This document shows, in pieces, positions 3,674 to 35,827 of a stretch of DNA of 64,000 bases. Where the stretch lies: the NCBI GenBank assembly GCA_002633005.1, contig NMRA01000397.1, positions 333,176-397,175 of the forward strand, in the 5' to 3' direction. The notes under the pieces were generated by a model. The model made no database searches and was not told where the DNA came from. It worked only from the letters and a program-made list of their open reading frames with translations. The stretch's first letter is position 1. Each line of letters begins with the position of its first letter. The translations under genes were made by a program, and so were the position numbers. This stretch comes from Phoronis australis. Lineage: Eukaryota > Animalia > Phoronida.

Positions 3674-3874
3674 GCACGTTACAGTAATCAGGAGATAAAC
3701 CTTGATGAAATAATATTATAGGCTTCCGTTTGTCGGTCCAATATCAAATTTGTTAATAGTATTTCATGTCTGGATTTTACGTCAACCTATTTTGCACTTC
3801 TACGACAGAATCCTTCTCAACTCTGTCGCAGCGTCACATTTGAAGCAAGGCCAATTCCACTTTACATACGTTAA

Positions 3875-5777: not shown

Positions 5778-7104
5778 TGAACGCAAACAAGAAAACATTA
5801 CTTTGATGATATTGTACGATTGGTGAAACTAATCCTTTTTTGAAAACAAAGAGTGCTTATTAAATGTTGACTGACATTTGTGAAAAATCAGCTTCATTCT
5901 TTACCGAAGTGGAGCACACGTTGATTCATCGCAGCATTTCATGAATGTATACATTACGATGCCAAGCGTACTTTATTTTTCAGAGACTAATTAACAGACA
6001 TGAAGAAGTAGTACATGTTAACTTAACTCAAACCACTCGTATTTTACACTCATACCCAAAACTGCCGACACCACGAAGAAAAACAATTCAATGTAATCAG
6101 CACTCTCACTGACAGAAATTCTGCCCATAAACCACCGAGCCACAGAGGATCACATGCTTAACGTAAGGTGATATGAATTTCAAACCAATTGTATTTCAGC
6201 ACATTGAAATCAAAATTTTACACTGTCTTTTCTTCTGTTTAGCTGTCAGAAAGGTAAAAACTCAACCACTTGTCTCTATAAAAACTGTCATTAAAATTTT
6301 CTTTACAGTGGCAGGACGTTATTTCTGTTGCCTGAGCATTAACAAGTAAACAGTTTTAAAAATTCATTTGGTTAGCCAGCCATTCCAAAATTTAAGCGCT
6401 TCAATTCGATCTCAGATTATTTAGGGATTCCAACAGAATGTCAAGAATACTTCTGAGTACAGTTTGACACGATTTTTATTTCACATCAAAGCAGTTAGTA
6501 TAGGGGAAAACTGAAGCTTCAACTTTAAGTACCTCCAGACTACAATAAGTAATCGGAAACTTTCTAAAGTTAATTAACTAAACTCTAATGTTCAGACGCT
6601 CCAAGTGTCAAACTGTGAATGGTTAACTTGCAAAATTGCCCCCGCGAGACTGCAGAGTAACAATGAAACAATTAAAGTAATTGAACAACATTAAGATAAA
6701 GCAAATACCACTACCCCAAAATTATTTTCGCACTTTTTCAGTCCACTAAACTCGTCATTACCCAGAACTACCAGGTATCCAATGTTGCAGACGTCATTGT
6801 TGCGATATAGGCATTGATTTATTGTCATAAAATGTCCCAAACTACCTAATAACCTTTTAACTACATAATAATAAAGCAAAAATGGTTCCCGGTGATCAGT
6901 GCAGTGGGAACACCTGAGCTGCGTGCTCACGTTGTACCATACTGCCTACAACTTTACTTTTCATAAACCATCTAATTCGCGCTACTAACTACGTCTCTGT
7001 ATCATTCGGAAATATCAGAATTTGCTTAGTAACCTCTGACAAAAAGTATTCATTTTTGAAAGAATTGCAGGCGTCGTACTACTACGTCTGTTACAACAAG
7101 GTAA

Positions 7105-7751
7105 CTAATGTAAATTTCCGACGATAGCAGTCGCTATTATCTTCTTTGGGTCTCTCATCATGGTGTAGTGATCTCCGTCCACCTCAACTACTCGAACCGG
7201 CTTGGAACACAACCTTTGGGAACCGTAGTCACGTCCATGGGCTTGTATTTCAGCTAGGGTCTCGGCCAGTGGACCGTCAGTTAAGAGTTCTGTGGCGCGA
7301 ACAAATGTTACGTTGTCATTGTAAATTGCTGAAGGACTGTACGAAGCATAGTTTTTCAGAGTTCCTCGGAAAGTCGAAAGTCCGGTCTTCAAATCTTCTT
7401 CGTTTAATCCTTTCTCTTTCCACGTGTCTTCAAACCACTGTTCAAAATTGGAAAGTTGTTCTTCAGAAGACCCTTGGATTTTTTTATAAGTGTTGGTGAC
7501 AAATTCCGGGGTTCCATCGAGAAGAACTAACGTTTCCGGTGTGCGGTTGACTTGCTCAAGCTTGATCGCCATTTCAAAGGCTATGACGCAGCCAGACGAA
7601 TAACCAACCAGTGTGTAGGGTGTAGACAAATTGAAAAAAGACAACTTTTTCATTCTATTCACATAGATATCGGCAAGCTGAGATACAGACTCGAAGGGCG
7701 TGGTACCTTCCAAGAAACGGAAAGCGTAAACTGGGTGCCTCTTTAGATGAC
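7105..7751 (-). CDS. Terminal NRPS exon: C-terminal part of the thioesterase domain
   Basis: After acceptor tttttttcttag it reads (G)HLKRHPVYAF...LVGYSSGCVIAFEMA...LLDG...VDGDHYTM; Ser/Asp/His triad motifs of a type I TE. Confidence 0.9.
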
Positions 7752-10700
7752 CTAAGAAAAAAATTATGGGATGTAAGAAAATGCACGTTTCCTGCACTTT
7801 GAATCTCAAAATACCTGCAGTATAACTTACCCTTTATTTTCACTTGATCACTGCTTGACGAAACACAAGCGTTACTGTGTGTTATTTCATTAGCCTTTCT
7901 AACTATTTTGTTTTATCAAAACATCATCATTATCACCAGAATTTGTTTTCGCCAAATGAACCGTTTTGATTACCTATAAGGATGTACACTATTATTTTGT
8001 AGAATATTCTGAGAAAAAACTTTTTAAAGCCGCTTCAAATCCTGCCATATGTAGTGATTACGTATGTGCATTCAAACTATCGATAAACCTGAGAGTAAAG
8101 GGACAGCTAAGTGAACCTTCTTAAAGCCACAATTAAACATACTTACCAGCGACATAGGCGTACGAAGATGTCCCACCATCACTAGCGTGAACACAGATGA
8201 CTGGCATCTTGTCTTCTTCGCCATCATTGAGACACACCAGCATATCACCATCGTCGTTTTTCAACTGCGCGACTGCAGCAATATCTACTAGTGTTTCGAA
8301 CTGCAGTACGTCACCTAAATTGAATATCAGCCCTCTCTTTTCACCGAGAGAAACAAGACTGATAGCCTTGATCGATGTTCCTCCAAGGTCAAAGAAAGAG
8401 TGGTCAAGTTTAATGTCGTCAACTTTCATTCCAAGAAGTGTGGCCCACATGTCCCGAAGAATAACCTCTTTGTCTGTTAGTTCTTCTTTTATTTTACTAT
8501 ATTCTTGCCAAGCGGGCTTATTCAATTTTGACGGTAGATTAGAAGCAGTTTGCAATATATCATTCATTACCTTTTTGTCACAAGCCTTGATCTCGTCTAC
8601 CGGCAAAACTATTGTGGAAGTATTGTCACATTGGCACATGGTCTTAATTTTCTCCAGGATGAAGGAATTGATGTTTAGACGAGGCGAAACAAAGACACAT
8701 CTCATTTTTTCATTTTGAGCAATGAAACATTCATTCAGTTCGTCAATATCTCTCAGCTCCTCTGGACATGTATCACATTCTTTATCTGCCATGATTATCG
8801 TTTCACCGCTTCTATTTGTCTGTGCAACAACGCCAGAGAAAAATTCGTTTTCATCACTTTGATGAATAAACAACTTTCCAGGGACGCCAATCGGGCATTC
8901 ACGTCCACGGTGGTCTTTGATGCGGTACACGTGTTCAAAAGTATCTTTATAGGAAGAGTTAGTGTCGATCGATTGGACAATATCGATATTAATGACTGAC
9001 CTCATGTTGTCAGAATGTAGTATTTCGTCCAATGCGTTGTCTAAATGAGTCAGTAGTTGAAGCGCAAAATCGTCACTTATTAAATTGGCGTCGTACATAC
9101 ACTTGGCCATGAGATTTTCACCGTCGTCGGCGAATAGAACTCCCAGTGGGAATTGAACCCTCTCATACCCTTGGATGTCCGTCATTTCAATTTCGGGGTC
9201 TGCAACATTTTCAAGCGTGGGGTAGTTTTCATAAGTAACCAGGGTATCGAACAGATTTTGATCTCTTGGAAGTCCACTCCACTTGCGTATATCGGCTAGA
9301 TTACTGTGATCGTAAGCCATTATGGCGGCTTGACGGGCTTGAATATCCGTTAGCCAATCAATTAACGTTACACTTTCATCAGATGGTATGGGAATTCGAA
9401 GAGGTAACGTGTTCAACAGTAAACCAACCATATCTTCAATACCCTCTACTTCAGCGCCACGGGATGCCATCACAACAGCAAAAACCACATCAGTACCAAA
9501 AGTGCTGCAGTAGCGATCCAAAATTAATGCCCAAGCACCGTACATAACTGACGTCGTAGTCAAAAAGTTTCGTCGTGCAAATTGCTTCAAATCTCCAATT
9601 TGGAGAGAGAAAGTACGCATAACATCCCTGTCGTCTTGTTGGTTAGAATTTTTAACGATCTTTAAGTTCTTTAAGGACAGAAATCGTTTTGGTTGAAGAT
9701 TGTCTAAATAATCAGACCAGAAATTTTGCGAAACTGACATGTCATGATTCTTACAGAAATCCACAAAAAGCCGAAAGCTCGGAGCAGGTGAAAGTTCTTT
9801 CGAATGGTAAACGCATAAAACGTCTCTTAAAACAAGCGGTCCTGACCAGCCGTCGAAAAGAGCGTGGTGAAACGTCCAAATAAACCTATAAATTTCTCGG
9901 TCAATCTTCATCAGGGCAAAGCGCATGAGATCACCATTCATATTAAAACCCTTCGCCCTATCAGCTTCCACAAATAGCATTTCCTGTTCGTGTGGGTGCT
10001 CCCAAACCCCAACTTCCCACTCTGGGTTTGCATTTCGTCGAACAACTTGTCGCAACGAGTGGTTCTCGGCATCAATTACGAAACTTGTTCGTAAAGCAGA
10101 GTGATGGTCTATAACTTTGCCCCATGCAGACTTAAATCTTTCAATGTCTAGTCTCCCGGAAATATGTAAACAGTACTGCACCAAATAAGAAGATTTGTCT
10201 CGAAGGAGCGAAAAAATAAAACCCTCCTGAAGAGGCGTACAAGAATAAATATCTTCAACATCTTTGACTTTGATGCTTGCTGCTTTCAATGTGGCGTCGA
10301 TCAAGGCGAAGTTTGAAGCAAGAGATAAATTATCAGAGCTTATTTGAGTACTATCTAGCTTTAAGCATTTGACGATGTTCTCTGTTGCCGTTTTCCACCC
10401 GTCGGCCAGTAACTTAATGGTTTCTCGTCGATGAAGAGCCTTGCTAAACAGAAACAAACCTTGCAAGCAACCATTAGAAATGTCGCACTCGATGGCTAAA
10501 TTATGCGAAATTCTTTCATCCTTGCACTGGTTGTTATAGTTGTAATCGCCATCCGCACATACTTCCCACAAGCTATTCTTGCTAGAGAACTGCGTAGCAC
10601 TGCCATGGTAATTAAAAACAACATCGCATTGTTGATTGAATCTTGGATCAGAGTCCTTCTTAAGAAACTTCATGACGCCATAAGGCATGCCTTTTTGAGG

Positions 10701-13700
10701 AATGTTTCTGAGGCGACGTTTTATTCCTTCTAGTTGCTTCAATGTATCGTGAGTTCTGCCATCAACCACCAAAGTAACGGGATACATCACAGTGAACCAA
10801 CCGACAGTTCGAGAAAAATCTAGTTTGTCAGTCCATGATTCTCTCCCGTGCCATTCCATTTCAACGGACAACGAAGATTCTCCCATGCACTCGTTGTATG
10901 CTGTAATGAGAGCAGTCAAAAGGACGTCACTTACCGATGTATGTTCGCTACTATGCGTTCCCTTGAGGCTGAGTAGCTGATTTGTTGTACTCTCGTCGAA
11001 GCAAATTTTTTCTAAAGTGCGAGTTTGACACGTAACTTGATCCCTATTATAATCCAAGAAATCAACCTTTAGAGGACTGCTCTTTTCTAATGCCGGCCAG
11101 TCCCTGGTTGAAACGGACAGAGCGTAGTCTGACTTTAAAAACTCCGACCATTCCTTAAAAGACGTTGTCTTTTGAGGAAGGACACCTCCACGGCACAATG
11201 TCTCCAAATCCTCCAGAATAATTTGCCACGAAACAAGATCCACAGCCATGTGATGTATGGTAATGAATATGTACTGGCAATTGCCTTCTATATCGAACAA
11301 TCCGACAGCCATAAGTGGGCCTGACTTCAGGTCGAGTGAGTTTTGAAGTTTAGTGATTTCCACAGCCACTTGATCTTCAAGTACGTCCTTGTGGATTAAC
11401 TTTGGAATCGGGGTTTTCGAGACGGGCTGGATTTCCTGGATCACTTTTCCATCATCACAAACAGTGAAAGAAGCTCGTAGAATATCATGATGGAGAACAA
11501 GAGATTTGATAGCATTTTGGAGGATATCTGGCTCAATCATAAGCAAAGGACGCAATAACAACGACTGATTAAAACAGTCACGATTACGCAACTTCAAGTG
11601 AAAAAACCATTCCTGCACAGGAGTGAGAGGCACGTTTCCAGATATTTCAATATTTTTGACCGTATTTGTTGGCATGTTAGAATGAACAAATTTTGCAACA
11701 GTTGCAAGTTGGGTCAAGTTTCTCGTCTGGAAGACATGTTGAACCGTGAAGCGCAAATTACGCTTTCTTCCAAGAGAAAATACTTTCATTGCTGAAATGG
11801 AATCTCCACCTAAGTAAAAGAAGGAGTCACTAGACTTAATTTTCGATGGATCTATTTGGAGGACTTCACTCCATATTTCAATCAGCAGTTCCTCCTTCTT
11901 GGTCAGTACTTCATGTTGAGTCAAATTTGGCGCCGGCAAACTTTTGTAGTCAATCTTCTCTGCCGTTGACATGGGGAATTCCGAGAGGGGAACAATCACG
12001 GACGGAACCATATATTTCGGAAGCTTATTTTCAAGTTTCTTTTTCAAATGAAATACACCAGCACCACCAATATCTGGTGTAACATAGCCTACAAGTACGC
12101 CATTATTCACTACTGCTGCAGCGTTCTTAATGCCGTCTTGCATTCTCATAGCGTGGTCAACTTCGTCTAGTTCTACACGGAATGCTCTTAGTTTTACCTG
12201 CCTATCTTTACGACCAAAGACTATGATTTCACCATCTGGAGTCCAACTTCCCCAGTCGCCTGTATTGTACAACCGCCCTTCACCAAAAGGATTTTTAATA
12301 AATTTTTGGTAAGTTAGATCTGGTCGTTTAAGGTAGCCTCTAGCAACACCATGTCCACCAAGAAACATAGTACCTTTTACCCCGATTGGAACCGGTTTTA
12401 AGTTGTCGTCTAGAATATGTACTTGGCAGTTAATGACTGGTTTTCCAACTGTCACTCTGGATTTTGTATTTGTTAAGCCTATAGTGCAAATAATTGTGAT
12501 TTCCGATGGACCATATTCGTTGTACAATTCTGCATGATTTTTCCATTTAGCTGCAACGGATTCCGAGAGTATTTCCCCGGCCACAGATATCTTTTTTAAA
12601 TTTGAGAAGTCGTCTGGGTCCAGTGAAGCTAAAACAGATGGTGTCATCATTGCAAAGTCCACCTTTTTTAAAGTGTTCACATAATTTAGTTCTCTCTGCA
12701 CAAGTGTCGCCCCGGTTGTTAATGCCATGAATACCTCTTGATACGCAGCGTCAAACATTATGTTGAAGAAATGAGTAATCCTCATTCCACGTCTGATGTC
12801 ATGCGCTTTGCAAGTTTGTGGAATTAAACATTCGCAACCCCAGTGATTCACCATCACTCCTTTCGGCTTTCCAGTCGTTCCCGACGTGTAGACAATCCAT
12901 GCCAGATGTTCACTTTCTGCAATGTTCTTCAAGTTCTGATACTCAGACTGGTCAAATTGATCGTCAGAAAACCTTGCAGTATACTTTTCTACGTCAAGCA
13001 CAATGATTTCACCGTTGAAATTTTTCAAAATGCCAGTTGCTTGGATTTTTGCAGTAGTTACTACAATTTTACATTCAGCATCATCAAGCATAAAGTGAAT
13101 GCGATCTTGAGGAAGTGTCGCTTCTATGCAAACAAATGCGGCTCCAGACTTCAAAATACCAATTTTGGAGGCTATAAATTCTAAATTACGTTCACCAATT
13201 AGACCAACTGCTGAGTCTGGAACTGCACCAAGCACTTTAAGTTTCCGTGCTAAGCTATTACTTGCCGCGTTTAGTCTCCTGTAGGTAATTTGCCTTTCCA
13301 TTTCTTCTACAGCGATTAAATCTGGCGTCAGCTCTACTTGTTGCTCAAACTGCTGATGTATGCGTAATTTAGAATAGTCTCCAGTTTTGTTGAATGTCAT
13401 AATGAGCTCCGTTTGAGAGGGAGGAAGAAGATCAAGTTGGCACATGGGAGTTTCCATGTTTGTGGTAAGTAATTCAAACAAGTACACTAGGTGTTGACTC
13501 ATTCTTTCAATTGTGGTACGACTGAATATGTCTGTGTTGAAAACGAAGTGTCCACTCAATTTTCCACTACTTTGCCGCAAAAATTCTAGATTCAAGTCGA
13601 ATTTTGCTGTAAACTGTTCGAAGACTTGTGCTTCCATGGAAAGACCATCAGCAAATTGTCTGCTTGGAAGATCTTCTTGTAGAACAGTAGCAGCTTGAAT

Positions 13701-16700
13701 AATAGGGTGGTATGAAGTGTCTCTTGGAACATTTAACGATTCTAAAATCTTTTGAAAAGGAACATCTTGATTCTCCAATACCCCTAGCATCAAATCTTTT
13801 ACTTTCGTTAACATCGAGTGGAACGAAGCTTTCCTTTCAAACTGCACTCGGAGAGGGAGTGTGTTCACAAAATAGCCTACTATATTTTCTGTGCCAGCAT
13901 TATGCCTACCAGAGAAGAATGCTCCGATAACAACATCATCAGACTGTGAATAAATGCGCATCAACAATGAGAACATGGTGGCTAAAGCGGAAAATAGGGT
14001 TCCACCGCATTCTAAAGCACACGCCACCAACTTTTGAGTGACACGATCTGGTATGTCTATGAAAACAGTCGCACCTTGATAGCTAGGAATTGCAGGCCGC
14101 GGGCGATCAAGTGGCAAATCCAGCACGTTGCTGACGTTTTGAAGTTGTTGCTTCCAAAAGCCAAGTTGTCTCTCCATTTCTTTGCAATCCAACATTTTCC
14201 TCTCCCAGTTGCTGTAGTCAATATAGTTTAACTTCTGCGGAGACAGTTTGAGCTGAGTGTTATTCAAGCGTGAGGAATAACATTCGCTTAACTGGTCAAC
14301 AATTATTTTCACAGAAGCTCCATCTGTTACAGAGTGGTGCATAAACATACCCAACTGGTGGTCCGAATCAGACAGCTTCACAAGAGCAAACCGCAAAAGA
14401 GGACAAGAATATAAATTAAATGGTAATGAAGCTTTTAGATACAAATACTCTTTTGCTTTGCGTTTACTTTCGTGTTGTCCGATGAAGTCTTGGAAATCAA
14501 ACTCAAGCGAGCAATCATTTGCTGGCTTAACTATTTGAAAGAATTCGTTATCCTCAGATCTTTTAAAGTATGTGCGAAAAGCTTGGTTCATAGTTGATAC
14601 ATCATTCAAAGATTCCTTCAATATGTCGACGTGCAAGGCGCCATGGAAGTTTAGGATGACCACTACATTGTATACAGGACTATGAGGTATTAGTTCATAC
14701 AGTAAACACATTTGGTCTTGCCTGTATGATGCTTTAGCTGTTATTACGCTGTTGTCATCGAACGGACACGTTTTGGGAATAAATGTGTGTACCTTTGAAC
14801 GAACTTGCGGAACCAGTATTCTATGGCACATTTCTGCTGAAAGTTCTGCAGGTGTAGATAAGCTCATTATATCTGCCATGCTTACTTCCACGCCGGAGGT
14901 TTCTGCTAGTAAGGATTTTAAGCTGATGGCTAGAAGTGAGTGCCCTCCGAGGTCAAAAAAGTCATCTTCCATGTTGAATCCTGGATCCACAACTTTCCTG
15001 AAAGCATCGAGTACGATGGATTCTAGGTAATTCGAAGGTTGTTTTCCTTTATAATGTGTAGTTTTAGGCTTAAACTTTGGTAGGGCTCTTTGATCAATTT
15101 TCCTATTGGCTGTCAAAGGAAACCGTTCCAGACAGAACACAGTAGTAGGCACCATAAAGCTAGGTAATTGCCTCTTTAAGCGAGATATTACATCGGATGA
15201 TGTGATGTTCGTACTTGTGAGAACGTATGCCACAATGTACTGACCATCTTGAACTGTTACGTGAACCTGGTTAATACCTGGTTGTTGCTCAATAGCAGTT
15301 CTGACCTCATCGAGCTCCACACGTTTACCTCTTAGTTTTATTTGATCATCCATTCTGCCAAGCACTTCGATTTCTCCATTTTCCAGCCACCTGGCTAGGT
15401 CACCGGTTTTGTACATTCGTCCAGCACCAAACGGGTTTTCAATGAAGGCCTTTTCTGTTAAATCTGGTCTATTGTGATATCCTTTACCAACATTAACACC
15501 GGCTATGAACAGTTCTGCGGTTACGTTTACAGGAACTGGGTGGAGATTTGAATCTAGAATAAAACTCTTTGTATTTGGTAACGGCTTTCCAACTGTCACT
15601 CTTTTGTNCAAAAAAGTCATCTTCCATGTTGAATCCTGGATCCACAACTTTCCGGAAAGCATCGAGTACGATGGATTCTAGGTAATTCGAAGGTTGTTTT
15701 CCTTTGTAATGTGTAGTTTTAGGCTCAAACTTTGGTAGGGCTCTTTGATCAATTTTCCTATTGGCTGTCAAAGGAAACCGTTCCAGACAGAACACAGTAG
15801 TAGGCACCATAAAGCTAGGCAATTGCCTCTTTAAGCGAGATATTACATCGGATGATGTGATGTTCGTATTCGTGAGAACGTATGCCACAATGTACTGACC
15901 ATCTTGAACTGTTACGTGAACCTGATTAATACCTGGTTGTTGCTCAATAGCAGTTCTGACCTCATCGAGCTCCACACGTTTACCTCTTAGTTTTATTTGA
16001 TCATCCATTCTGCCAAGCACTTCGATTTCCCCATTTTCCAGCCACCTGGCTAGGTCACCGGTTTTGTACATTCGTCCAGCACCAAACGGGTTTTCAATGA
16101 AGGCCTTTTCTGTTAAATCTGGTCTATTGTGATATCCTTTACCAACATTAACACCGGCTATGAACAGTTCTGCGGTTACGTTTACAGGAACTGGGCGGAG
16201 ATTTGAATCTAGAATAAAACTCTTTGTATTTGGTAACGGCTTTCCAACTGTCACTCTTTTGTTTGGCAGTAACCTGCCCGTGTGCGATATTACACTGCAT
16301 TCTGTTGGACCATATCCATTTAAAAGGATTCTGTCTTTACCCCATGCCTTCACCATTGCTTGGGAACAAGCTTCCCCTGCCGCTAGGACAACTTTGAGGT
16401 TAGAGTAATCGTTAGGATTGAGAATATTCAAAGTCGACGGTGTGTTACCAACAGCATCTACTTGTTTCATTGTTGTTGTAAAATCACCAGACGGGAAGAC
16501 AAGGCATCCACCATGACATAGGGTGGTGAAAACTTCACCTACAGTTCCATCGAACCCAACAGCAAAATACTGCATCACTTTTGTCTCCGGCGTTATGTTG
16601 AAAATTCCCCCAGGTTTATACATTATGAAATTGATGAGCCCACGATGTTCAACCATGGCACCTTTTGGAAGGCCTGTTGTACCCGAAGTGTAAATCATAT

Positions 16701-19700
16701 AAGCAAGATCACCAGATTCATTCACAATATCTGGATTGGGTCTGCCTTGCTTCACGTGAGCAATCAAATCTGCACTCCTTAAACTTACATACTTGATGTC
16801 GTTGGGCAAAGTTTGCGTATTAAAAGAAGATGCGTTGATGGCAAAACGACAACTACAGTCTTCTAGTAAAAATGCAATACGATCAGGTGGCTGAGAGGCA
16901 TCAATTGACACAAATGCCCCCCCTGCTTTCCAGATGCCTAACATTCCAGCAGCTAAAGTCATCTCGCGGTCTAATATCAGTGCCACCTTTTCTTCGCGCT
17001 TGAGCCCAAGGTTTCGCAGTTGATATGCAATGCTATTTGCAGCTGCATTTAGTTCGTTATACGTAATAGACGCATTTTCTTTCACCAATGCCAGTTGACC
17101 TGCATTTGACAAAGAGCTTACAGTATTTTCGAACAAGTGGTGAACGCCTTTGATATGCCCTAACCGTTTTTGATATTCATCAGAAGGGTTAAACTTTTCC
17201 AGGGTAAGGTGTTCTTGGGGGCTAACTATGTCAAATTCGCTAAGCAGCGTCTCTTTTGAGGAAGACGCAATCCATGCCATGGCTCTCTCAAAATGACGGA
17301 GTGCATTTTTTAGCCCAGTTCCGTCAATAATGCTTGTATCAAAGATGGCTTTGATTTTAATAACATTTCCATTATTAAGGATATCTAGTGTAAGTGGATA
17401 TTCTGTAAATTCGTGATCATAGACATCACTAACTCGAAATTGCGAAGATGTCAGCGCAGATGTCTTTTCTCTGTTAATTGTGTTATATGACATTACTGTT
17501 TCAAAAAGTTTGTGATCCGCGCTTAGCCCACACCATTTCATAATATCAGTCATAAACGATTTTTCGTGAGCAAGAATTGTAGTTAGCTTCTCCTGTATGT
17601 ATTTCAGCCATTCAAAAACGTGGTGATCATGAATCTTCACCCTCATCGGTAATGTGTTTATAGTAACACCCATAAGTCTGTTTACGTCTTCAATATGAGA
17701 TGTTCCTCGACCAGAAACAACGAATCCAAAAAGAACATCGTTCGGATCACATGAGTATTTGTTAACCACAATAGCCCAAGACGCGCACAGAATCGACACT
17801 ACGGAAATATCATGGCCTTCGGCATATTCGTGCAGCTGGTGCATTGTTGCATTTGTTATTGTGAAGTGAATCACTGCGTTACCCTTTCTTGGACTTTCTG
17901 GAGGCAAAAAGCGAAGATTGCCGAGTTGGGGCAATTTATGCATTTCTTCAGTCCAGAAACCTTCGGCCTTATAGCTACGCTGCTTGAAGTCAACCACTTC
18001 TTCAACATATTCTCTAAATTGTGGGGACTTGAGCAACACACCATCGTTGTAAGCTAGCAAGACTTCTTGAAGAACATTGAAGCATGTTAGGCCATCTACA
18101 ATACTATGGTGTGAGGTCATAATTAAACGATGCTTACTTTTTGAATGCTTAAAAAGCGCAAATCTTAACATTGGCTCCGAGAAATCAAACCCGGAATGGC
18201 GATCATAATGAAGGAACTGACTTTCTTTTTCAACTTGCTGCGCACCTGTGAGATCTGATAAATCCTCCACTATCCACTGGGGTTCGAATGTCTTGCGCAC
18301 AATTTGCATGCATCCGTTTAATCTGTCAATGATAAAGCGCGTTCGAAGAATATCATGTCGTAAAATTACTTTCGATATACTACGTTGGAGTTTGTCGTCG
18401 TCAAGATATCCGTCGATTGTACAGGACCGTTGTATCAGGTAAGCAGAAGAATCTTGTAGAAGACTAAACAGAAACCCTTCTTGCACAGGGGTACATGGGT
18501 ACATGTCAGAAACATGCTCAGCTTGGAGGTCTATCTGAGCAAGACGTGTTGACAACACGTCATCAAGGTGATTTTGTGACAGCTTCAACAATGGAAAATC
18601 AGACGGCGTATATCCAAAAACGTCTCCTTTTGTACAATGCAGCACCAGATTTGATAAGTTTGCTTTCCATCTAGCTATCCACGACTCAATAGTACTTTGC
18701 CTGTGGATATCTGTAGAGAAGAACATCTTCATGCGCAGTTTCTCATCCTTTAGAAAGCATTCCACAACAATTTTGTGCGTTAGGTTTTCATTTATATCGA
18801 ACTCATCTTCTCCGCAAGGATAATCGTCAGCAATGTCCCAAAAGGCGCTTTTTGTCTGAATCTGATCAAATCGACCGTAATAGTTAAACAAGACATCAGA
18901 CTTTGGGACTATGGGCTCTTGTGAAGTCTTTATGAGCTTCAAAAGCCAAAATGGCATTCCACGTTTCGGAATGCTTCTTATGTTTTCTTTGGTGTACTTC
19001 AACGTTCTTTCCATTGTTATTTCTGTCGAAGACCCTCTGCAAACTTCCAATTGTAGAGGGAACATTGTCATAAACCAACCAACAGTACGAGAAATGTCAA
19101 TGGAGTCATCCCATGGCTCACGTCCGTGAGCTTCAACGTCAACTTGCAGCTGTTTCTTTCCCATTGTTTCGTTATATGCTAAAATCAGAGATGCTAACAG
19201 AAAATCGGTCGTGTTTGTTCTAAAGGCATCGTTGGCCGCTGAAATCAAATCCGTTGTAATTTTTTCACCCATTTCTTCAACGACAACTCGCCTAGACCTT
19301 GCTGTCGGAGAAATAATATCTGCAAAATCTGTAATCAGTGGAATCGTTTCTTTAGGACTGGGCCAAACGTTGTCTGAAAGTTTTTGGTTTTGGGCGTATT
19401 CTCGTAAAATCAATGACCAATTTTGAAAAGACATGCTTACACTCTCTGTGTCTTGTCCATTGTACAATCGCTCCAAGTCTTCCAAGATAATTCGCCATGA
19501 AACGAGATCAACGACTAAATGGTGGACAGTGATGAAAATCCTTTGCGTGGCACCGATACTAAAAAGGCCGACAGCAAGGAGAGGTCCAGTCAATATGTTA
19601 AGGGAGTATTTCAAAATACTAATCTCTGTGTCAAGCACGTCGCTAGAATCGAGATTTTTGGCAACAAAGGAGGTACAGTGAGACTCGTTTATCCTTTGCG

Positions 19701-22443
19701 TCCATGAACCGTCTTCATTTTCAGAATATGTGCATCGCAACATTTCGTGATTGGAAATTAACTGAGATAATGCCTTCCTAAGTTGCTGTTCATCAACTAT
19801 TGTCTTTGGTTTAAGAAGAAAAGACTGGTTCCAGAAATTTGGAGTCTTAAATCTCTGCTCGAAAAACCAAATTTGCGCGGGAGTGAGTTGAACAAAAGGA
19901 GATGCGGCCAATCTTTCTTTGTCTTTGATTCGATTGCAGAAGCGAAGAGGCTTGGCAGTCATTGCGAGCTGCCCTAGAGAAGGATGTCCCAACACTTGCT
20001 GAACAGAGAGGAGCAGATTTTTTTTCCGAGCGGCAGAAACAACAGTCATGGCAGAAATAGAATCACCACCGACTTCAAAAAAAGATGAGTCGGGAGAAAT
20101 TTTCTCAACTGGTACTTTAAACATTTCACTCCATATATTAGCTAGGACTAATTCTCTTGGTGTGAAGTGAGTGTGTGTTGAGGATAATTCTTTTGAAGTT
20201 TGAATATTTAGATTTTGTTTTTCTAATGTACTTCGTGAATCAATTGTAGGAAGCGACTTGCGGTCAACTTTTCCGTTTGCTGTAACTGGAAATGAATCCA
20301 TCACAATGATAAATGCTGGAATCATGTACGATGGCAAAACAGTGCCAATTTGTGCTTGCAAATCAGAGACATCTAGTTGTGCATTTTGCTCGTGAATGAC
20401 ATATGCAACGAGTTTTTCCTGAACTTTCAAGACTAACGCGTCCAAAACGCCTTCCTGGCTCACTAGCGTTGATTCAATTTCCGATAACTCAACGCGGAAA
20501 CCACGGATCTTAACTTGATTGTCAATGCGCCCACAGAATTCTATGTAACCTTCAGGATGAAATCTTCCAAGATCACCAGTCTTGTATATTCTTTCTCCTT
20601 TGATGAAGGGACTTGGCAAGAAACGAAACTTAGTTACCTGGGGATTGTTCACGTAACCCATGGCAACGCCCATTCCACCAATATACAATTCACCTATAAC
20701 CTGCATCGGTACAGGATTCAAAAACTCATCCAAGACATAATACTTCTGATTGGTAAGCGGCATACCATAAGGTATGCTTGTCCAAAGTGGGTTGATATCT
20801 TTTATTGGGTAATAAATCGACCAGATGGAACCTTCTGTAGCACCACCCTGACTCATTACTTGAATTCCAGGAACCATGGTTCTCAGTTGCGAGGGAAGAG
20901 CCAGTGGGATTCTGTCACCACTCAGGATGACAAGACGTAGAGTTGAAGGCAGCATGTCTCCTTCAGAGTAAAGGTATTCCATGAGGAGACTAAGAACAGC
21001 TGGTGCTGAGTCCCACATCGTCACATTATGGTTCTTCATTGTGGTAACCCAGCAAGCAGGATCTGGGATGCCGCGTACTTCGGGAACTGGAATGACAACC
21101 GTGCCACCTGTAGCAAGCATGCCAAAGATGTCGTACACAGAAAGGTCAAAACTGAGTGAAGCAACCAAGAGGATTTTGTCCCTGGCCGTCACAGAATACC
21201 TCTCGTTTATGTCCAGTATTGTGTTTACTGCATTTCTATGACTAGTCATGACGCCTTTTGGTCGACCAGTTGAGCCAGACGTATAGATTATATAAGCAAG
21301 GTCATCAGGTTTCACTTCAGGTGTGTCGTAGTCAAACGCGTCACCTCTCTCGGACAGTACATCATCCAAACACAATACACTATTGCAATATTTCTTCAAA
21401 ATGACAACCATGGAGGTCTTTGCCAGAATGAGAGATGCTTCTGAGTTTTCAATCATGTAGCTCAATCTTTCCTCTGGATAGCTCGGGTCGAGTGGAAGGT
21501 ATGCAAACCCAGCTTTCATGATAGCATACAGACCAATCACCATTTCTAATGATGCGTCGACGCTTACTCCAATCACGCGACTCGAGTAGTCATTTCCCAT
21601 GACAGACAATATTTTCTTGGACAACATAGTTGATCTGTATTCTAACTCTTTGTATGTCAAACTCTGGTCAGCGCATGCTACTGCAACAGAATTAGGATCG
21701 TGGCGGGCTTTCTCTTCAAAAAGCTCGTGCATCAAACATTCACTTCTTTTATAGTTCTCGGTGGTGTTGTTGAACTGAAGGAGTGTTTGCTGTTCACTGC
21801 ATGTGAGCATGGGGACACTCAGAAAGTTTGGATTGCTGTTCTGAAGATCAGGGATTTGCAACAACAGCAGAAGAAAGTGGTCTCGGAACTGCTCTAGCAA
21901 ATCATCGCGGCATCGGTGGTCATACCGAAGTGTGCATGCGCAGTCACAAGGAGATCCAAGAGCCATGGCAAGTGTTATGGCGTATTTTGAAAGAATGTTG
22001 ATCTTATTGATTTCTCGTGGCAAGTTGAACGCCACGAACGCATTACGGCTGTTACGACTGTACTTTGCATGAGCTATAGGGGACTTGTCCAGTTCCAATC
22101 TCAAAGATTTGAGAAGATCCGGTAATTGACCGTTGACCCCACAAGGCAAGAAGACAGGAGAATACCCTTCGACTTCGCTGGCATCTCTTCCATTGTCGAT
22201 AGCTTCTGGGTCATGTGTGTCAGCCTCAGCAAATGCTAATTCAATTGATGGCGATTTCTCTGCACCCTCGTAGCGGATAAGCACAGCGTAGACTAAACAC
22301 AACAAAGCGTCTATCGTACTATAGCCTAGAGGCGAAGCAATGTTTGCTAGAATTGTACAAACTTCTCTTCCGACGTTGAAGGATAACTTTTTGTGGTATT
22401 CTTCTTCAACATCTTTCGGCCTGTTGTTTCCTTCTTTTGACAT
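7105..22443 (-). CDS. Multimodular non-ribosomal peptide synthetase, C*-A-T-E-C-A-T-C-A-T-E-C-A*-T-TE (~4762 aa after removing the duplicated overlap and the intron)
   Basis: Three A-domain P-loops (YIIYTSGSTGRPKG, YMIYTSGTTGLPKG, WIVYTSGTTGKPKG). Four carrier motifs (GGDS, GGHS, GGDS, GGTS). Two E domains (HHLVVDLVSW/EAHGRE/RTVGWF and HHMAVDLVSW/EWHGRE/RTVGWF). Three C domains (HHSIVDG, HHSVTDG, HHALFDGWS). TE with GYSSG and GDH. join(22443-15609, 14953-8147, 7751-7105) = 14289 nt, in frame. ATG 22443 follows an acceptor tttcag, so an upstream exon is likely. Confidence 0.93.
7752..8146 (-). other. Spliceosomal phase-1 intron (395 bp) within the NRPS TE domain
   Basis: Donor GCTG|GTAAGT at 8146 and acceptor ttttttcttAG|GT at 7752. 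Splicing gives in-frame ..SSYAYVA-G-HLKRHPVY.., uniting the two halves of the TE. Confidence 0.9.
14954..16262. repeat. 654-bp direct duplication either side of a single N (unmerged contig overlap or two haplotypes)
   Basis: 14954-15607 and 15609-16262 are near-identical (about nine substitutions seen) and abut the N at 15608. Collapsing them restores one ORF. Confidence 0.9.
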
Positions 22444-23324
22444 ACCTGAAATGACAGTAATATTCCAAGCAACAACAAACAATGGTCTTGCAACAATGTA
22501 CTCGTGTAGGACGTGCATGCAAACATATGTGAACAAAAAGAAAATGACAGTTTATTATATCGAATCAATATACGATTACTTGGTGAAATGGACTTTCTCC
22601 TCGTATGTTGCCGTGTCGTGAAGTTATATAAACTTTTTGTATACTCGCAATAGGTCGTTTTTTCGTCCTATCGACATGAAATCCACGTTAAAATCTCGAG
22701 GTCAATTTTTGGGGGGACAAAATCGGTCCAAGAGACGGCGCTGTGACGGTCATTTTTAAAGAAATCAACTTACCAAGGTTTAGCTCTGTGGTTCTAATCC
22801 ACAAGTCTGTATTTACACAAATATACATTTTTACTCATCAAAATTATATATTTTCTAAAATTATAAGGCGCGTAGAATTTGATGCTTGACCTGATACCAA
22901 TCTTGAAATAACTGAGTTATATGACCATGTATTTTTAGTAAAATTTAGCTAGAACGAAAGGAGCATTCATAGCAAAAACAACTGGTCGAATTTTGTTTAA
23001 TACAAATGCTCTCAAATACAATGTTACGATTTTGTAAATCATCTTTTCGTTTTCGTTTTCGTTTCATAGATCTTTTCGTTTTTTCATAGAAATCTCGAAA
23101 AAACAATTGTTGTTAATCTCTCATTTAAATGTGGAAAAGTTTAAAAATAGTTCTCTTAAGAACAAGTTAAAACTTGTTTTAATTTGTTAATAATCTCTTA
23201 TGCTAAAGTGGAACAGTTTAAAGATAGCTCTTAACTGCGTTTTGGAGAACAGATTCATGTTAAATGTTATGTAGGACATGTCAATAAAAACAATGCCGAG
23301 CTTAAACTGGCTTGTATGTTTCGG

Positions 23325-23462
23325 CAATGACGTCATTGGATGATTTCAATACTTCCGTCTGCCGTCAGGTGTCAGGTATTGCAACCGAACGTGCCGTTAT
23401 CGAGTAGAACTACTCGATCTAAATTGATACAAAATGGGTTGTTTTTTGGGTGGCATTCTCCT
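23325..23462 (+). mobile_element. Second copy of the Kolobok-like right end
   Basis: gacgtcattgg..ccgtctgcc.tcaggtgtcaggta..atctaaattgatacaaaat..gggtggcattctcct|ttaa matches ~5655-5777, and its last 15 bp are the perfect inverse of 3875-3889. Confidence 0.7.
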
Positions 23463-26400
23463 TTAAGAACGTCTTAGAGTATTTATTAAGCGTATAAATT
23501 AATTGTTACAACATTCATTTATATTCAATGGCGTAATCCTAACAACAACAGCGCAAACCAATCGGTTACAGGTATTATCGTTATATTTAGTTTTCCTACC
23601 ATTTCATCGTGCAATAAGATCTCCTTTATTTCCGCAAGAGGCTGTCGTGAACATTTCTGTGTAAAAATACAAGCTTGTGCAACGGTGTTGCCGACAAATC
23701 CCGTCTTCGTCCTCTTTCATGGAATTTTAAGGCACAAGAAATATCTTTTGCAAGGGTATGGACAAAAGATTAACTTCTTTTCTTTACTGTGGTCGTTCAC
23801 CACTGCACGCCGTATTTGGATGACCAATCGGCGAAATCTTCACGAACACTAAACGTCGTGGCTACTTTTGAGTGGCTGATACTTGGAACTTCACTTTTAA
23901 AGTTATGTAGGACATTATCGACAAGTTGTGTATTTAGCCAACTGTCTACATTACTTTACCCCCATGCTTCAATGTATAATGTCGTAAGGTGAGAATTTTC
24001 GAAACAAAGATCTGGACCAGTGTTTGGATGGCGTAATAGGGCATTTATCTCCGTCCCCAGCCTTTGGTTGAGGGCGCCCCCCGTTTTTGCTCCTGCCTCA
24101 TCTTCAGCAGATCTATCTTATGTTGATCAATTCCCTGACCTCCTCGTATTTCTCGTAATTTATATTACATTTGCTGCCCAAATTTTTTCTTGATTTACTC
24201 TATATTTTGCTTATATGTATTTCTCCATTACACTGCTCATATTTTTTTGTTCTCAATATTTTAAACAAAGACACTTCACAAGTTTGAAATTGACAAAATA
24301 ATATCAGCATGGTAGTCGACGTCTCGCGTACTTCGTCGGCGCACACATGCCCCGTGGGTGTCGCCTCGACCCAAATAATGGTGGCGGAGAAAGTGAATAG
24401 TCTTTTTAACGTCTATGTATTTAGCTCATCGCTTGCGACAGTCGTATAATTCTAACGAAGAACACTTTATATTAACCTTAAACCCTTCACACCATGGTCA
24501 TAAATGGTTGAATTCGGTTTCCAATAAGTTTAATACTATAGTTTAAATATTTCCTCTTCAATTTGTGTTCTTTTAATCAAAAAATAAACGCAAAAATTAA
24601 AATTCATTTGTGTCGTCATCAGAGCAAGTCCGGTCTCGACCATAGTGCTGATGTACACCAGCCGCGAGCCGGAGTGGTCTCGAAAACTAATTTTGGTTGA
24701 GTAATATGGAACGTTGTTTGTGCGGAAGATGTAGTAATAGCAAACAGACAGGCAATATTTCAGCTTTTTCGATTTCGAAATACCCCTGGCACAGGTTCAT
24801 GCGTCAGACACGGGTATAGCAGTACACAAGGTTTTGTTGGGAATGCATGCTGTCCACATACATCAATGCCCAATAGTAGAAAATGGAATGTAGGTGCCAG
24901 GCAAATAGTTTGAGGTCACGACCCCAGCCGGTTCAGATCGAGGCAGGAGTCGCACACAGAACCGATATCATCGCCAAATCATAACGATACAAAGCTTTCG
25001 TAAATCTGGATCAGACAAGACAGAAACGAAAGTCATTTACCAGAATTAAAGTGTAGTTTGCACCAATATTCGAAGAAATGACATCGGCGACTGATATTCG
25101 CGACTGGGCTCTGACAGTCACGATAAAAACTTCGCTTAGACAGTTCGAGACATGTATAACTCGACACTAAAGTGATTAGAAAACTAAAGTAATGGCCACT
25201 CTGAAATCAAGAATGTCCGCAGACTAAGTAGTGTCCGACTCGACTTTACTCGACGAAAACGCTGGTGCAGGAGGGTCGAGTTTTTACGGCCTGAAACACG
25301 CAAAGTATGCCGATGTAGCGAGGTCTATCTCATTATTTGTTTCACTTATAACCCGAGTGTCGTGTCCACCCAAATCTCTATACCAGTTTTCATATTAATC
25401 GTCAAGTTCGCTCTCTAAGTCTTCTTAACTTACGAAATCCATGCGCGCACCCAGCCTAAAATATAGGGGGTTCGAATTTTTCGGTATGCGGACCTTTTAC
25501 TGAAAAAATAACGAGGACTAAAATAAAAAAAACGGAGCCACTAGGTTCGAGCCCCCCGAGCCCACCATGGGTGCAACCATGAAATCACTACTATTCGCCG
25601 TTACATATATACTGTCAACTGAGGAACGTGTTCCACTGATACCATCACGTTGCGAGAAAACAAAAAATCGTGAATATTTCTTTGAAATTCAAAATTCCCC
25701 AATTATTTCTTAAAACAAGGGAATGTTTAGTTATGTTTTATGTAATGAAATTTTTAAATACCGTCTACTACCTCAAAAAGTGCAAAAATCCATTGCAGGA
25801 ACGTTTTAAGTTGCGGCTCGCTATTTCACTCAAATGACTATCATTCCATTAACAAGAAATTGCATTAGGCGATGTTGTTGGTAAATAATCGTGTTAGAAC
25901 AGTTTTAACGCTCTGTGATGGCTGAGTATGGATGAATAATATTCTTACAAGTGAGATATAACTATATTACATGAACAGTTTCCGAACATACGCCCCCCCC
26001 CACCAGTCAGGAAACACGTCAGGGCATATATTCGGTTTCATTTGACGTTTTTAAAGGTCGTTTTCCTAGCAACTGCCCATGGACAATTTTTTTTTCAAAA
26101 TTCCTGGTACTGACTGCCAAACTCCCGTGAGTTGAAGTATCGTAAATTAAGAACGCGTACGCAGACCACGGCTGAATTGAGTGTTGGAGCATTAAGAACG
26201 TGTATGCAGACCCCAGCTGAACTGACTGTTGGAACATGACACGGTTGCACACGTTGAAATTTTTATCCGCCTTGCATTTACGTAAATTAGTTCATTAAAT
26301 AACTAAAGACGACGCTATCATAACATACATTTCTATTAATGAAAATGCTCAAAACATCAACCATATTAATATAAAGATTAGTACGGAACGTCAGCGCAGT

Positions 26401-32150: not shown

Positions 32151-32449
32151 CCTGAAAAAAACTTTCTATGAAAAATATTTTGATTGGTGTTGATATTTTG
32201 CATTGAAATGGATAATAATCAGAATATTGCAGGCTCTACCGGGTAGGTCAATAAGGATACCAGTGCCGAGTTTGTTTACGCAACTGGTAACTCGACTCAG
32301 GGTGATGACACCAAATACATCCTTAATTCTTAAATTTTGAGGATTGACGAAAGTCACAAGATACGGAGAATTATTTGTGTGTTTGCTATCAAATACACTT
32401 CGTTTACAACGCGTTGAGTTATAGCAGCATGTTGTTTATTCAATATACT

Positions 32450-34711: not shown

Positions 34712-35827
34712 CTTGCTTTTCACGGTAAGTGAAGCTGATCAGACGAAATACAATGAACTATAGTTTGATACAAGCCAGTCAGTCAAATAGCGGCATTTGG
34801 CAACAACATTTATCTAAAAGCCTCATGCAGAGTCACATCTTAGACCAAATTCAAACAGAAATTGTACAGCATTGCGGTGCAGTATTTGATCACAGGAACA
34901 ATCGCTAAACTACAATTTTGAATGCTCGTTTCTTGACAAATTCCAAAAACGGTTCCATCGGGTAACTTACGTTACTCTATACTAAAGCGCCAATAAACCC
35001 ACCTTCCACTCTCAAAAAATTGTGATTTACACCACTTACGTTATAAGATTGGTCTCAAATTGTTCTTTAGCCACATCGGACGGAGTTATGGGCTTGACCT
35101 AGCAGCAAGTCACTGCTCAAAACGAGGCTCTATAAGTTGGCTTGTCACCACATCATTTTATTCGCCCGAGCATGTACTCTAGTCCGTCAGTTCTTCGCAA
35201 ACCCAGTGACCATTGAGTAAGGAGCAAGTTGAGACCAAATGTGCAGCGGTCTGGTCTGGTCAAAAGTTCGCTTATTGGACCGAGAGCGGGCTGATAGCCT
35301 CTTTAATGTACGAAAACAATGTTTTTGGTTCGGCGGCAATGCTCTAAGTTATACATGTATCGGGCGATGCTCGGCGATAAAGCCGATTGACTTCCATTGC
35401 GATGGCTTAGAATGTTCAGGCGATTTTTATCGGGTCCGAGGAGTAGGTTCCAACTGTGAACCTAAATCTAAGCCGCAATTGGTTCTGATGCTTAACTTGA
35501 GTTTCAGAGCAAAAAGGATTACATCGGACGATAATCATATGGCGTTTAAAATCGGCTACAAATGCTCCACCGGGACAGTTTAAACAGTATTTTTGACGGA
35601 CAAGTGTCTGAAAAGCTATTAAGCAGGTGACGGTAAGCAAACTTCCTTGAAATGATGTTCCATGGTCTCAGCTAAGATTATAAATTAGTGCAAACCAAAG
35701 ATATTAGCAAAGCTTAATTTTTGCATTAGACCGAATTACACAGTGACATTCGAATCTCGCTGTATTTACTCGCAATGCCGCAAAAATCGTTCGTATGATT
35801 TATATTTTTTCAGGTGCATTACATCCA

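What the first reader, a model, noticed from the sequence alone, without database searches (positions are those of the whole stretch)
7105..22443. Intact, intron-containing animal NRPS with two epimerisation domains: a candidate undescribed D-amino-acid peptide pathway
Seen: ~14.3 kb of open frame with all catalytic motifs for C*-A-T-E-C-A-T-C-A-T-E-C-A*-T-TE, with no stops, while most neighbouring sequences (transposons, TLR) are riddled with lesions. Known: multimodular NRPSs are typical of bacteria and fungi. Animal examples are few (nematode nemamide PKS/NRPS, springtail ACV synthetase, bdelloid rotifer NRPSs, single-module Ebony), and I do not recall this domain order among them. Inference: the animal itself, not a symbiont, makes a short peptide of D-L-D configuration under purifying selection, possibly for chemical or antimicrobial defence.
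Basis: partly seen in the sequence, partly recalled or inferred. Interest (0 to 1): 0.95.

Follow-up and report, generated by a model that had tools for sequence, protein, structure and literature searches.

The report
Animal peptide synthetase with fungal kinship
An animal genome (likely a horseshoe worm's) carries an intact, spliced and transcribed gene for a 4,762-residue nonribosomal peptide synthetase whose closest relatives found are in early-diverging fungi, and which is predicted to build a short peptide of alternating D- and L-amino acids, likely a defence compound made by the animal itself.

Summary
Confirmed and extended. The minus-strand gene encodes a 4,762-aa NRPS: C*-A-T-E-C-A-T-C-A-T-E-C-A*-T-TE. 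The mid-gene break is an assembly artefact, a 654-bp overlap at one N that contigs of two runs skip. RNA shows two GT-AG introns (395 nt in the TE, 5.3 kb in the 5' leader) and mainly sense reads along the gene. Alleles give pN/pS of about 0.17. Both E domains and the DCL-LCL-DCL condensation order predict D-L-D stereochemistry. A1 is cysteine-type; A2 and A3 have unmatched codes; module 4 has lost its A core. New here: every A, C and E domain groups with early-diverging-fungal NRPSs, above all Basidiobolus ORX93211, roughly module for module, not with bacteria. The TE matches animal fatty acid synthase TE best (inconclusive). No tailoring genes were found nearby. Multimodular animal NRPSs, and an E-domain one (springtail ACV synthetase), are known. 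This locus is likely among seven phoronid regions listed, without description, in a 2023 survey. Product, function and direction of transfer are untested. New variant of a known kind; interest 0.72.

The parts
27772..27921 (-). Non-coding leader exon (5' end approximate), donor GTAAGT at 27771
   Evidence: 149-nt loose end of an 11,779-nt X4 contig at 22446 maps to 27773-27802 with 2 mismatches, 0 of 100 shuffles match
22446..27771 (-). Intron 1 (5,326 nt, GTAAGT...TTTCAG), carrying a dispersed repeat at about 23330-23460
   Evidence: the repeat has RNA depth up to about 310 with loose ends of low agreement and a copy at 5655-5767
21829..22443 (-). C*: non-catalytic C-lobe remnant at the N-terminus (aa 1-205), no HHxxxDG
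   Evidence: no Pfam hit; 16.7 bits to the C-terminal part of a C profile, shuffles at most -1.2
20251..21720 (-). A1, cysteine-clade adenylation domain, code DLYDISQIWK
   Evidence: best single-stretch PDB hits 8xjz and BmdB; 7 of 10 to the Cys code DLYNLSLIWK
19954..20166 (-). T1 (GGDS, Ser795)
18574..19911 (-). E1 epimerisation domain (HHLVVD, EAHGRE, RTVGWF)
   Evidence: E profile 334 bits against 35 (DCL) and 80 (LCL)
17209..18510 (-). C2, DCL type (HHSIVDG)
   Evidence: DCL 276, LCL 173 bits
15724..17151 (-). A2, code DGGGLAGVIK (glycine-rich, predicted large pocket)
   Evidence: at most 5 of 10 matches among 476 A domains
14954..16262 (.). Assembly overlap: two 654-bp copies around the N at 15608; not biological
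14814..15681 (-). T2 (GGHS, Ser2284); the span includes the artefactual duplicate
13401..14723 (-). C3, LCL type (HHSVTDG)
   Evidence: LCL 378, DCL 201 bits
11937..13355 (-). A3, code DAQMSAEIIK (polar pocket, Glu at 322)
   Evidence: 4 of 10 to the His code DSALIAEVWK
11691..11888 (-). T3 (GGDS, Ser3330)
10314..11651 (-). E2 epimerisation domain (HHMAVD, EWHGRE, RTVGWF)
   Evidence: E 342 bits against 45 and 75
8994..10271 (-). C4, DCL type, intact HHALFDG
   Evidence: DCL 343, LCL 159 bits
8484..8981 (-). A*: decayed C-terminal remnant of an A domain, no adenylation core
   Evidence: weak: 1.2 bits to an A profile, 3 of 300 shuffles reach its score against A3, Atlas AMP-binding-like 0.91
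8274..8459 (-). T4 (GGTS, Ser4472)
   Evidence: Pfam; best PDB hit is the fungal TqaA T domain; GGTS in 2 of 1,456 sampled T motifs
7105..8231 (-). Thioesterase (GYSSG Ser4599, LLDG Asp, GDH His4742), split by intron 2
7752..8146 (-). Intron 2 (395 nt, GTAAGT...TTCTTAG)
   Evidence: spliced in 4, 2 and 3 reads of X6, X7, X8 and in contigs of X5 and X4; unspliced in DNA run X1
5957..7104 (-). 3' UTR with AATAAA at 5977-5972
   Evidence: X5 contig 5957-7524

Best explanation
This is an intact, spliced and transcribed gene, likely the animal's own, for a four-module peptide synthetase that groups with early-diverging-fungal enzymes and is predicted to make a short peptide of alternating D and L residues that likely starts with D-cysteine and likely serves in defence. 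Predicted steps: A1 loads cysteine (or a close polar analogue) on T1 and E1 inverts it. DCL-type C2 joins it to a bulky, probably aromatic L-residue from A2/T2. LCL-type C3 adds a polar or basic residue (His-like at best) from A3/T3, and E2 inverts it. DCL-type C4 then most likely adds a fourth, L residue on T4, loaded by re-use of an upstream A domain because A* has lost its core (about 45%; alternatives: hand-over of the tripeptide to T4 about 30%, loading by another protein about 15%). The FAS-like TE would release a linear acid. C* cannot acylate, so the N-terminus would be free. Shown: gene structure, transcription, splicing, constraint, motifs, domain classes and tree positions. Inferred: substrates, T4 loading, release mode, activation by the host PPTase, and function.
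For: Splicing of both introns and mainly sense RNA: X6 covers 28 of 30 bins and X7 24 of 30; X8 covers 12 of 30; an 11,779-nt spliced contig in X4. Heterozygous bubbles in DNA run X1. 25 synonymous to 15 non-synonymous changes in 40 allele rows, pN/pS 0.17, p 4e-8. Class profiles E, DCL, LCL, E, DCL, with 89 of 90 held-out domains classed correctly. Basidiobolus ORX93211 is the best of about 420 stored NRPS-type proteins for both frames (1336 against 1032 bits; 1285 against 1141). A1 pairs with its first A at 98/97, alternatives rejected at p-AU 0.016 and 0.028. A2 and A3 sit in a 12-row clade with only Zoopagomycota, 99 under LG+G4 and LG+C20. E domains separate from bacteria at 100/100 (p-AU 2e-4 for placing them with the best bacterial hit). 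C3 pairs with the fungal LCL at 97/93 (p-AU 0.012); the DCL clade is 100/99. Precedent for an A domain serving two T domains: mannopeptimycin (PMC8949500).
Against: No product, assay or tissue data. A2 and A3 codes match nothing well, and A1 differs from the Cys code at 3 of 10 places. The GGTS motif of T4 is rare. Expression is low in three RNA runs (depth about 0-5 in the fifth of each run that was read). No listed contig bridges the gene to the TLR: an N at 28742 lies between. TE affinity is weak: a bacterial control TE also scores 46-48 bits on FAS and the Atlas lists bacterial clusters first. Eukaryotic branches are long, so attraction is possible. No animal FAS or animal NRPS sequence was in any tree. 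The allele rows are the 40 usable of those the tool displayed, all from the 3' half.
Confidence: 0.6

Rival explanations
1. Same host gene, but the product is a D-L-D tripeptide: C4 and T4 only hand the chain to the TE, or are skipped.
For: A* has no adenylation core and looks relaxed (5 non-synonymous to 3 synonymous rows, against 10 to 22 elsewhere). T4 has the rare GGTS motif. No partner enzyme was found in the window.
Against: C4 keeps HHALFDG, scores highest of the two DCL domains, is 37% identical to a fungal DCL and shows 5 synonymous to 2 non-synonymous rows.
Confidence: 0.25
2. The enzyme is one part of a larger pathway. T4 is loaded by another synthetase elsewhere in the genome (as SyrB1 loads SyrE), the TE cyclises the chain, and the product may be a signal rather than a weapon.
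For: Trans-loading precedents (PMC8949500). Seven NRPS regions are listed for a phoronid. Nemamide genes are scattered over the genome (PMC8363725). That D/L alternation favours small rings is recalled, not tested.
Against: The TE has FAS-type features (LLDG in 3 of 85, DY-x4-C in 0 of 85 sampled NRPS TE ends), and FAS TEs hydrolyse (established knowledge). No partner could be searched because no genome is held.
Confidence: 0.15
3. The gene belongs to a co-sequenced fungus or other eukaryotic symbiont and was mis-scaffolded into the animal assembly.
For: The closest relatives are fungal. Single-N joins flank the region. No listed contig links it to an animal protein-coding gene.
Against: Only 34-38% identity to the fungal protein. 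The 5.3-kb leader intron holds a repeat that is abundant and dispersed in this organism's RNA. GC 0.42 against 0.39 for the window. Near-identical alleles occur in six samples of three studies (one may be the assembly's own source). DNA depth is an even 38-56 with heterozygous bubbles. No relative in JGI metagenomes.
Confidence: 0.06
4. The fungal grouping is an artefact or reflects separate transfers: the animal took the gene from an unsampled bacterial lineage.
For: A1 nests inside bacterial Cys-type domains, and its best BLAST hit is Parabeggiatoa. Eukaryotic branches are long. Sampling rests on about 420 proteins.
Against: Four different domain classes each give the same fungal neighbours, in roughly collinear order, including the single LCL domain and the first Cys-type A followed by T-E. 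The mixture model keeps the A groupings.
Confidence: 0.2

Closest known systems
Basidiobolus meristosporus NRPS ORX93211.1 (P0190; Zoopagomycota)
   Same: Best match for both frames, 34-38% over more than 2,000 aa. Starts with a Cys-type A (DLYNFSLIWK), T, E and DCL, and has one LCL followed by A-T-E-DCL.
   Different: Five A domains and three E domains (D-D-L-D-L), intact last A, no TE in the record. The animal gene lacks one A-T-E-C unit, has a decayed last A and ends in a TE. The link to basidiosin cyclopentapeptides is an unconfirmed hypothesis, and the description in PMC7466969 (tetramodular, N-methylation, TE) does not fit this record's domains.
ACV synthetase of springtails and Plectus
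   Same: Animal multimodular NRPS with three A domains, an E domain, a TE and a Cys residue (PMC10531068).
   Different: One E acting on the last residue (LLD-ACV), with Cys second. Here there are two E domains, a Cys-type A first, and a fourth C-T unit. No IPNS-like gene was found in the window.
C. elegans NRPS-1 (nemamide)
   Same: Animal multimodular NRPS with D residues in its product; one A/C pair used twice; unclustered partner genes (PMC8363725).
   Different: Has a PKS partner; the source of its D-Asn is unidentified and no epimerising domain was recognised. Here canonical E domains are present.
Bdelloid rotifer NRPS/PKS
   Same: Horizontally acquired, expressed animal NRPSs linked to defence (PMC11258130, title and passages).
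   Different: Different phylum and large expansions. The word epimer- has no hit in that paper's main text. Relationship to this gene not tested.
Mollusc FmtATR (bur-ox)
   Same: Animal-encoded NRPS of a marine lophotrochozoan (PMC11869996).
   Different: Single module Fmt-A-T-R, clustered with tailoring genes; no C, E or TE.
Animal fatty acid synthase thioesterase
   Same: Top PDB matches of the last exon, 48 bits over both halves, against at most 29 for PKS and NRPS TEs.
   Different: Only about 30% identity, and a bacterial control TE reaches similar bits.

Membership tests
Multimodular NRPS | A domains with A3, A5, A7, A8 and A10 core motifs | tested here: met
   3 of 3 full A domains; TIGR01733 above cut-off
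Multimodular NRPS | T domains with the phosphopantetheine serine | tested here: met
   4 of 4; T4 has the rare GGTS variant
Multimodular NRPS | C domains with HHxxxDG | tested here: met
   C2, C3, C4; C* lacks it
Multimodular NRPS | Peptide-forming activity | not testable with these tools
   needs an enzyme assay
Strictly linear (type A) NRPS | Every module has a complete C-A-T | tested here: not met
   module 4 has no A core
Epimerisation domains | HHxxxD, ExHGRE and RTVGWF motifs; T-E-DCL context | tested here: met
ACV synthetase | Three modules for Aad-Cys-Val with one terminal E, plus IPNS | tested here: not met
   two E domains, Cys-type A first, no IPNS hit in the window
Nemamide NRPS-1 | ACP start, PKS partner, no recognised epimerising domain | tested here: not met
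   canonical E domains, C-lobe start
Single-module animal NRPS (Ebony, Sm-NRPS, FmtATR) | One A-T without canonical C domains | tested here: not met
E-rich NRPS lineage of early-diverging fungi (ORX93211 type) | A, E, DCL and LCL domains group with those of Basidiobolus and Dimargaritales, apart from bacteria | tested here: met
   sampling limited to about 420 proteins
E-rich NRPS lineage of early-diverging fungi (ORX93211 type) | Animal domains nested inside the fungal ones (direction of transfer) | tested here: inconclusive
   fungal monophyly not rejected: p-AU 0.37 for E, 0.45 for DCL
Animal FAS-type thioesterase | Closer to FAS TE than to NRPS TE | tested here: inconclusive
   for; against; no tree possible
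Host nuclear gene | Spliceosomal introns, sense transcription, poly(A) signal, diploid alleles, purifying selection | tested here: met
Host nuclear gene | Physical link to an animal protein-coding gene by long reads | not testable with these tools
   no long reads listed; N at 28742

The most novel reading that the evidence does not exclude
A multimodular, epimerase-rich NRPS passed from an early-diverging fungus (Basidiobolus lineage) to a marine invertebrate. There it lost one module and the last A core, gained introns, and was capped with a thioesterase taken from the host's own fatty-acid-synthase family. It now makes an animal-encoded D/L-alternating peptide such as D-Cys-L-aromatic-D-His(-X), possibly a protease-resistant metal-binding defence peptide.
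Probability: 0.3. Interest if true: 0.9.

Novelty: new variant of a known kind. Interest (0 to 1): 0.72.

Why it matters
Few animal NRPS pathways are characterised, and the 2023 survey calls the phoronid ones a riddle. This gene is a single, nearly intron-free, expressed open frame with clear stereochemical logic, so the question of whether an animal builds its own D-amino-acid peptides with E domains can be tested by expression and LC-MS. Its module-by-module kinship with early-diverging fungi offers a third origin besides bacterial transfer and FAS-derived invention: either eukaryote-to-eukaryote transfer or an old opisthokont NRPS lost almost everywhere. A host-derived TE would show how a foreign assembly line is domesticated.

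Tried and rejected
The mid-gene break as an intron or frameshift: rejected, it is an overlap artefact. A bacterial contaminant: rejected by splicing, the long leader intron and heterozygosity. A retrocopy explaining the spliced contigs of X4, which is labelled 'DNA?': unlikely, since both introns are missing there and DNA run X1 is unspliced; X4 is treated as probably RNA, which is my inference. Single-sequence AlphaFold models of A*-T4 and of the TE had pLDDT 34 and 33, so they were discarded and no fold search was run. The representative search was dominated by multi-domain sums (best 150 of 236,668) and cannot exclude closer relatives. Homologue searches covered lengths 3,988-5,000 for residues 1-760 and 1,369-4,358 for the C4-A*-T4 region, scored only 2,362 and 7,999 candidates, and listed no animal NRPS among the best 120 each; this is weak evidence of absence. 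The metagenome scan found no relative. The genome scan with the TE gave one cyanobacterial locus at 34% over 76 residues. The run search listed no indexed holder on record as RNA. A shared N-terminal C-lobe with Basidiobolus was not detected by BLAST. The TLR fragment search did not identify the taxon. No tailoring enzyme among 138 further frames of 62 aa or more, only RT and Pao hits; genes with short exons could be missed. The careful mixture-model A tree did not finish, so the quick tree is reported. Two weak rows were dropped from the C/E tree. No earlier findings of the scan were returned. Luo et al. 2020 is not held.
Full report
OBSERVATION. The window holds two long stop-free frames on the minus strand, 15493-22551 and 8133-15677, and a 242-codon frame at 7105-7833. 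Pfam finds AMP-binding, condensation, PP-binding and thioesterase domains in them. The two long frames meet at a single N (15608) flanked by a 654-bp direct duplication with 9 mismatches. Contigs of run X1 and run X4 both skip 655 bases there, so this is a scaffolding overlap of two alleles and not part of the gene.

GENE STRUCTURE AND EXPRESSION. The intron 7752-8146 (GTAAGT...TTCTTAG) is spliced in 4, 2 and 3 reads of RNA runs X6, X7 and X8 (about a fifth of each run was read) and in a contig of X5. It is unspliced in DNA run X1. An 11,779-nt contig of X4 spans 10162-22446 and continues with 149 letters that map to 27773 onwards, next to a GTAAGT donor. That defines a leader exon and a 5,326-nt first intron ending two bases before the ATG. 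X4 is labelled 'DNA?' by the tool; I infer it is RNA because both introns are missing. An X5 contig ends at 5957, 15 bases after AATAAA. First mates lie mainly on the plus strand over the coding region, which in most stranded libraries means minus-strand RNA. Depth is low, about 0-5. X6 covers 28 of 30 bins and X7 24 of 30; X8 covers 12 of 30, mostly the 3' part.

HOST OR CONTAMINANT. Intron 1 carries a repeat that is abundant and dispersed in this organism's RNA. X1 depth is an even 38-56 over the gene with heterozygous bubbles. GC is 0.42 against 0.39 for the window. Near-identical alleles occur in six laid samples from three studies; the best DNA holder may be the assembly's own source. Of the 40 allele rows shown (158 more were not shown), 37 lie in the coding sequence. 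With 3 rows they give 25 synonymous to 15 non-synonymous changes, pN/pS 0.17, p 4e-8; the overlap adds 6 to 3. All these rows come from the 3' half. The rest of the window holds a broken TLR, a Helitron and retroelement remnants. Against: no listed contig crosses the N at 28742 to the TLR. I put host origin at about 0.93.

ANATOMY. All three full A domains keep the A3, A5, A7, A8 and A10 motifs, four T domains keep the serine, and the TE has GYSSG, LLDG and GDH. Profiles built from 70 homologous domains each class the five C-family domains as E, DCL, LCL, E, DCL; 89 of 90 held-out domains were classed correctly. This predicts D at residues 1 and 3. The first 205 aa match only the C-terminal lobe of a C domain. 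The 165 aa before T4 are a weak remnant of an A-domain C-terminus and show 5 non-synonymous to 3 synonymous rows against 10 to 22 elsewhere (small numbers, no test). Specificity codes are DLYDISQIWK, DGGGLAGVIK and DAQMSAEIIK. A1 lies in the cysteine clade and matches DLYNLSLIWK, a Cys code (PMC12283262), at 7 of 10. A2 and A3 match no sampled code above 5 and 6 of 10. Four glycines suggest a large pocket in A2. Gln, Ser and Glu suggest a polar or basic residue in A3, with 4 of 10 to a His code. These last two are weak inferences.

RELATIVES. The best-scoring hits in both homologue searches were mostly bacterial, at up to 47% and up to 34% identity, with no animal among the best 120 of each. 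The top hit of the representative search, P0190, is Basidiobolus meristosporus ORX93211. It is the best match for both frames among about 420 stored proteins (1336 against 1032 bits; 1285 against 1141). Within that protein the best hits are roughly collinear: A1 to its first A (48%), E1 and C2 to its first E and C, A2 to its third A, C3 to its only LCL, A3 to its fourth A; for A1 and C3 a bacterial domain scores slightly higher by BLAST. In trees, A1 pairs with the fungal first A at 98/97 inside bacterial Cys-type domains, and two alternatives are rejected (p-AU 0.016, 0.028). A2 and A3 sit in a 12-row clade whose other members are all Zoopagomycota (99 under LG+G4 and LG+C20). The E domains fall with Basidiobolus, Dimargaritales, a chytrid and one ascomycete, apart from bacteria at 100/100. 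C3 pairs with the fungal LCL at 97/93, and C2 and C4 join a fungal DCL clade at 100/99. Whether the animal is nested in or sister to the fungi is unresolved (p-AU 0.37, 0.45). Caveats: long branches, reference sets picked by BLAST rank from a limited sample, alternatives named after seeing quick trees, and no other animal NRPS available.

THE THIOESTERASE. Its ten best PDB matches are fatty acid synthase chains (40-48 bits, both halves aligned); PKS and NRPS TEs score at most 29. The best NRPS with a single TE stretch pair among 389 stored proteins scores 36; one with tandem TEs sums to 48. FAS-like motifs are rare among 85 sampled NRPS TE ends (LLDG 3, DY-x4-C 0; the set holds near-duplicates). 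However, a bacterial control TE ranks NRPS TEs first but also scores 46-48 on FAS, and the Atlas lists bacterial clusters first. The only coding intron lies in this domain. I give host capture of the TE about 0.6.

MECHANISM. Most likely A1-T1-E1 gives D-Cys, C2 adds a bulky L residue, C3 adds a polar residue that E2 inverts, and C4 adds a fourth L residue on T4 loaded by an upstream A domain, as in mannopeptimycin (PMC8949500). The TE would release a linear acid with a free N-terminus. Rivals for the last step are hand-over or skipping (tripeptide) and loading in trans as for SyrE. No tailoring gene was found in the window. Activation by the host PPTase is assumed from the springtail case (PMC10531068). 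A defensive role is inferred by analogy with rotifer NRPSs and the antifungal Basidiobolus D/L cyclopentapeptides; signalling, as with nemamide, is not excluded. A free N-terminus with His at position 3 would form a copper/nickel-binding motif (recalled; speculative).

WHAT IS KNOWN. Suring et al. 2023 (PMC10531068; parts 1-3 of 5, passages, and rows of Tables S1 and S4 seen) report 199 likely-animal NRPS clusters of 772 and seven phoronid regions judged unlikely contamination. I saw no architecture, product or origin given for those; figures and the rest of the supplement were not seen and may hold more. One region is 54,404 bp long, equal to the span of this gene's two long frames from a TTG at 22536 to 8133 (14,404 bp) plus 20 kb on each side (flank size recalled). 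So the locus has likely been listed already and the animal is likely a phoronid; this rests on a length match, not on sequence. Animal ACV synthetase has one E domain. Nemamide has D-Asn without a recognised epimerase (PMC8363725, passages). FmtATR is single-module (PMC11869996, part 1 of 5 and passages). For rotifers (PMC11258130), Basidiobolus (PMC7466969, PMC10964425, PMC11376311, PMC10478498), A-domain codes (PMC11355689, PMC12283262 with one supplement search), non-linear NRPS (PMC8949500) and PMC12833800 I saw passages only. Searches for phoronid plus NRPS (3 papers), Phoronis/NRPS/Basidiobolus (30 of 4,450 listed, none with Phoronis), and animal NRPS with epimerisation or transfer showed no description of this architecture or of a link between an animal NRPS and early-diverging fungi. 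Subscription journals are largely not held.

VERDICT. A real, expressed, constrained animal NRPS with two canonical E domains. It is a new variant of a known kind. The gene is probably already listed in a survey, but its D-L-D logic, its module-wise kinship with Basidiobolus-type fungal enzymes and its FAS-like TE appear undescribed in what I could search. Interest 0.72.

Noticed in passing
window 32170-34740 (-): Toll-like receptor gene with signal peptide, LRRs and TIR, broken into at least 5 pieces in 2 frames; likely a pseudogene.
   Followed up: partly
window 44086-49381 (+): Fragmented Helitron with Rep, PIF1 and an endonuclease domain (Helentron-like, label recalled).
   Followed up: partly
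window 2603-3673 (+): Intact 356-aa frame with no Pfam hit, facing the NRPS tail to tail; function unknown.
   Followed up: partly
window 5578-5767 and 23325-23467: A dispersed repeat, abundant in RNA on both strands, with copies on both sides of the coding sequence (113 nt, 81% alike). Possibly a short mobile element.
   Followed up: partly
window 52330-54651: Inverted and direct repeats around the N gaps, with a Pao retrotransposon remnant; probably further scaffolding artefacts.
   Followed up: partly
window 37761-38167, 41704-41895, 43575-44106, 59861-61090: Tandem arrays with periods of 16, about 36, 54 and about 400-430 nt.
   Followed up: no
window 51378-52346 (+) and 58824-59201 (-): A 322-aa frame and a 126-aa frame (possible death-fold exon by eye) with no Pfam hit.
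   Followed up: partly
P0190 (ORX93211.1): Its domain order predicts D-D-L-D-L with a Cys-type first residue, which does not match the description given for the gene model it is equated with in PMC7466969.
   Followed up: partly
window 18116-22099: A few opposite-strand first mates in X6 and X7 over the 5' part of the coding sequence; low depth, unexplained.
   Followed up: no
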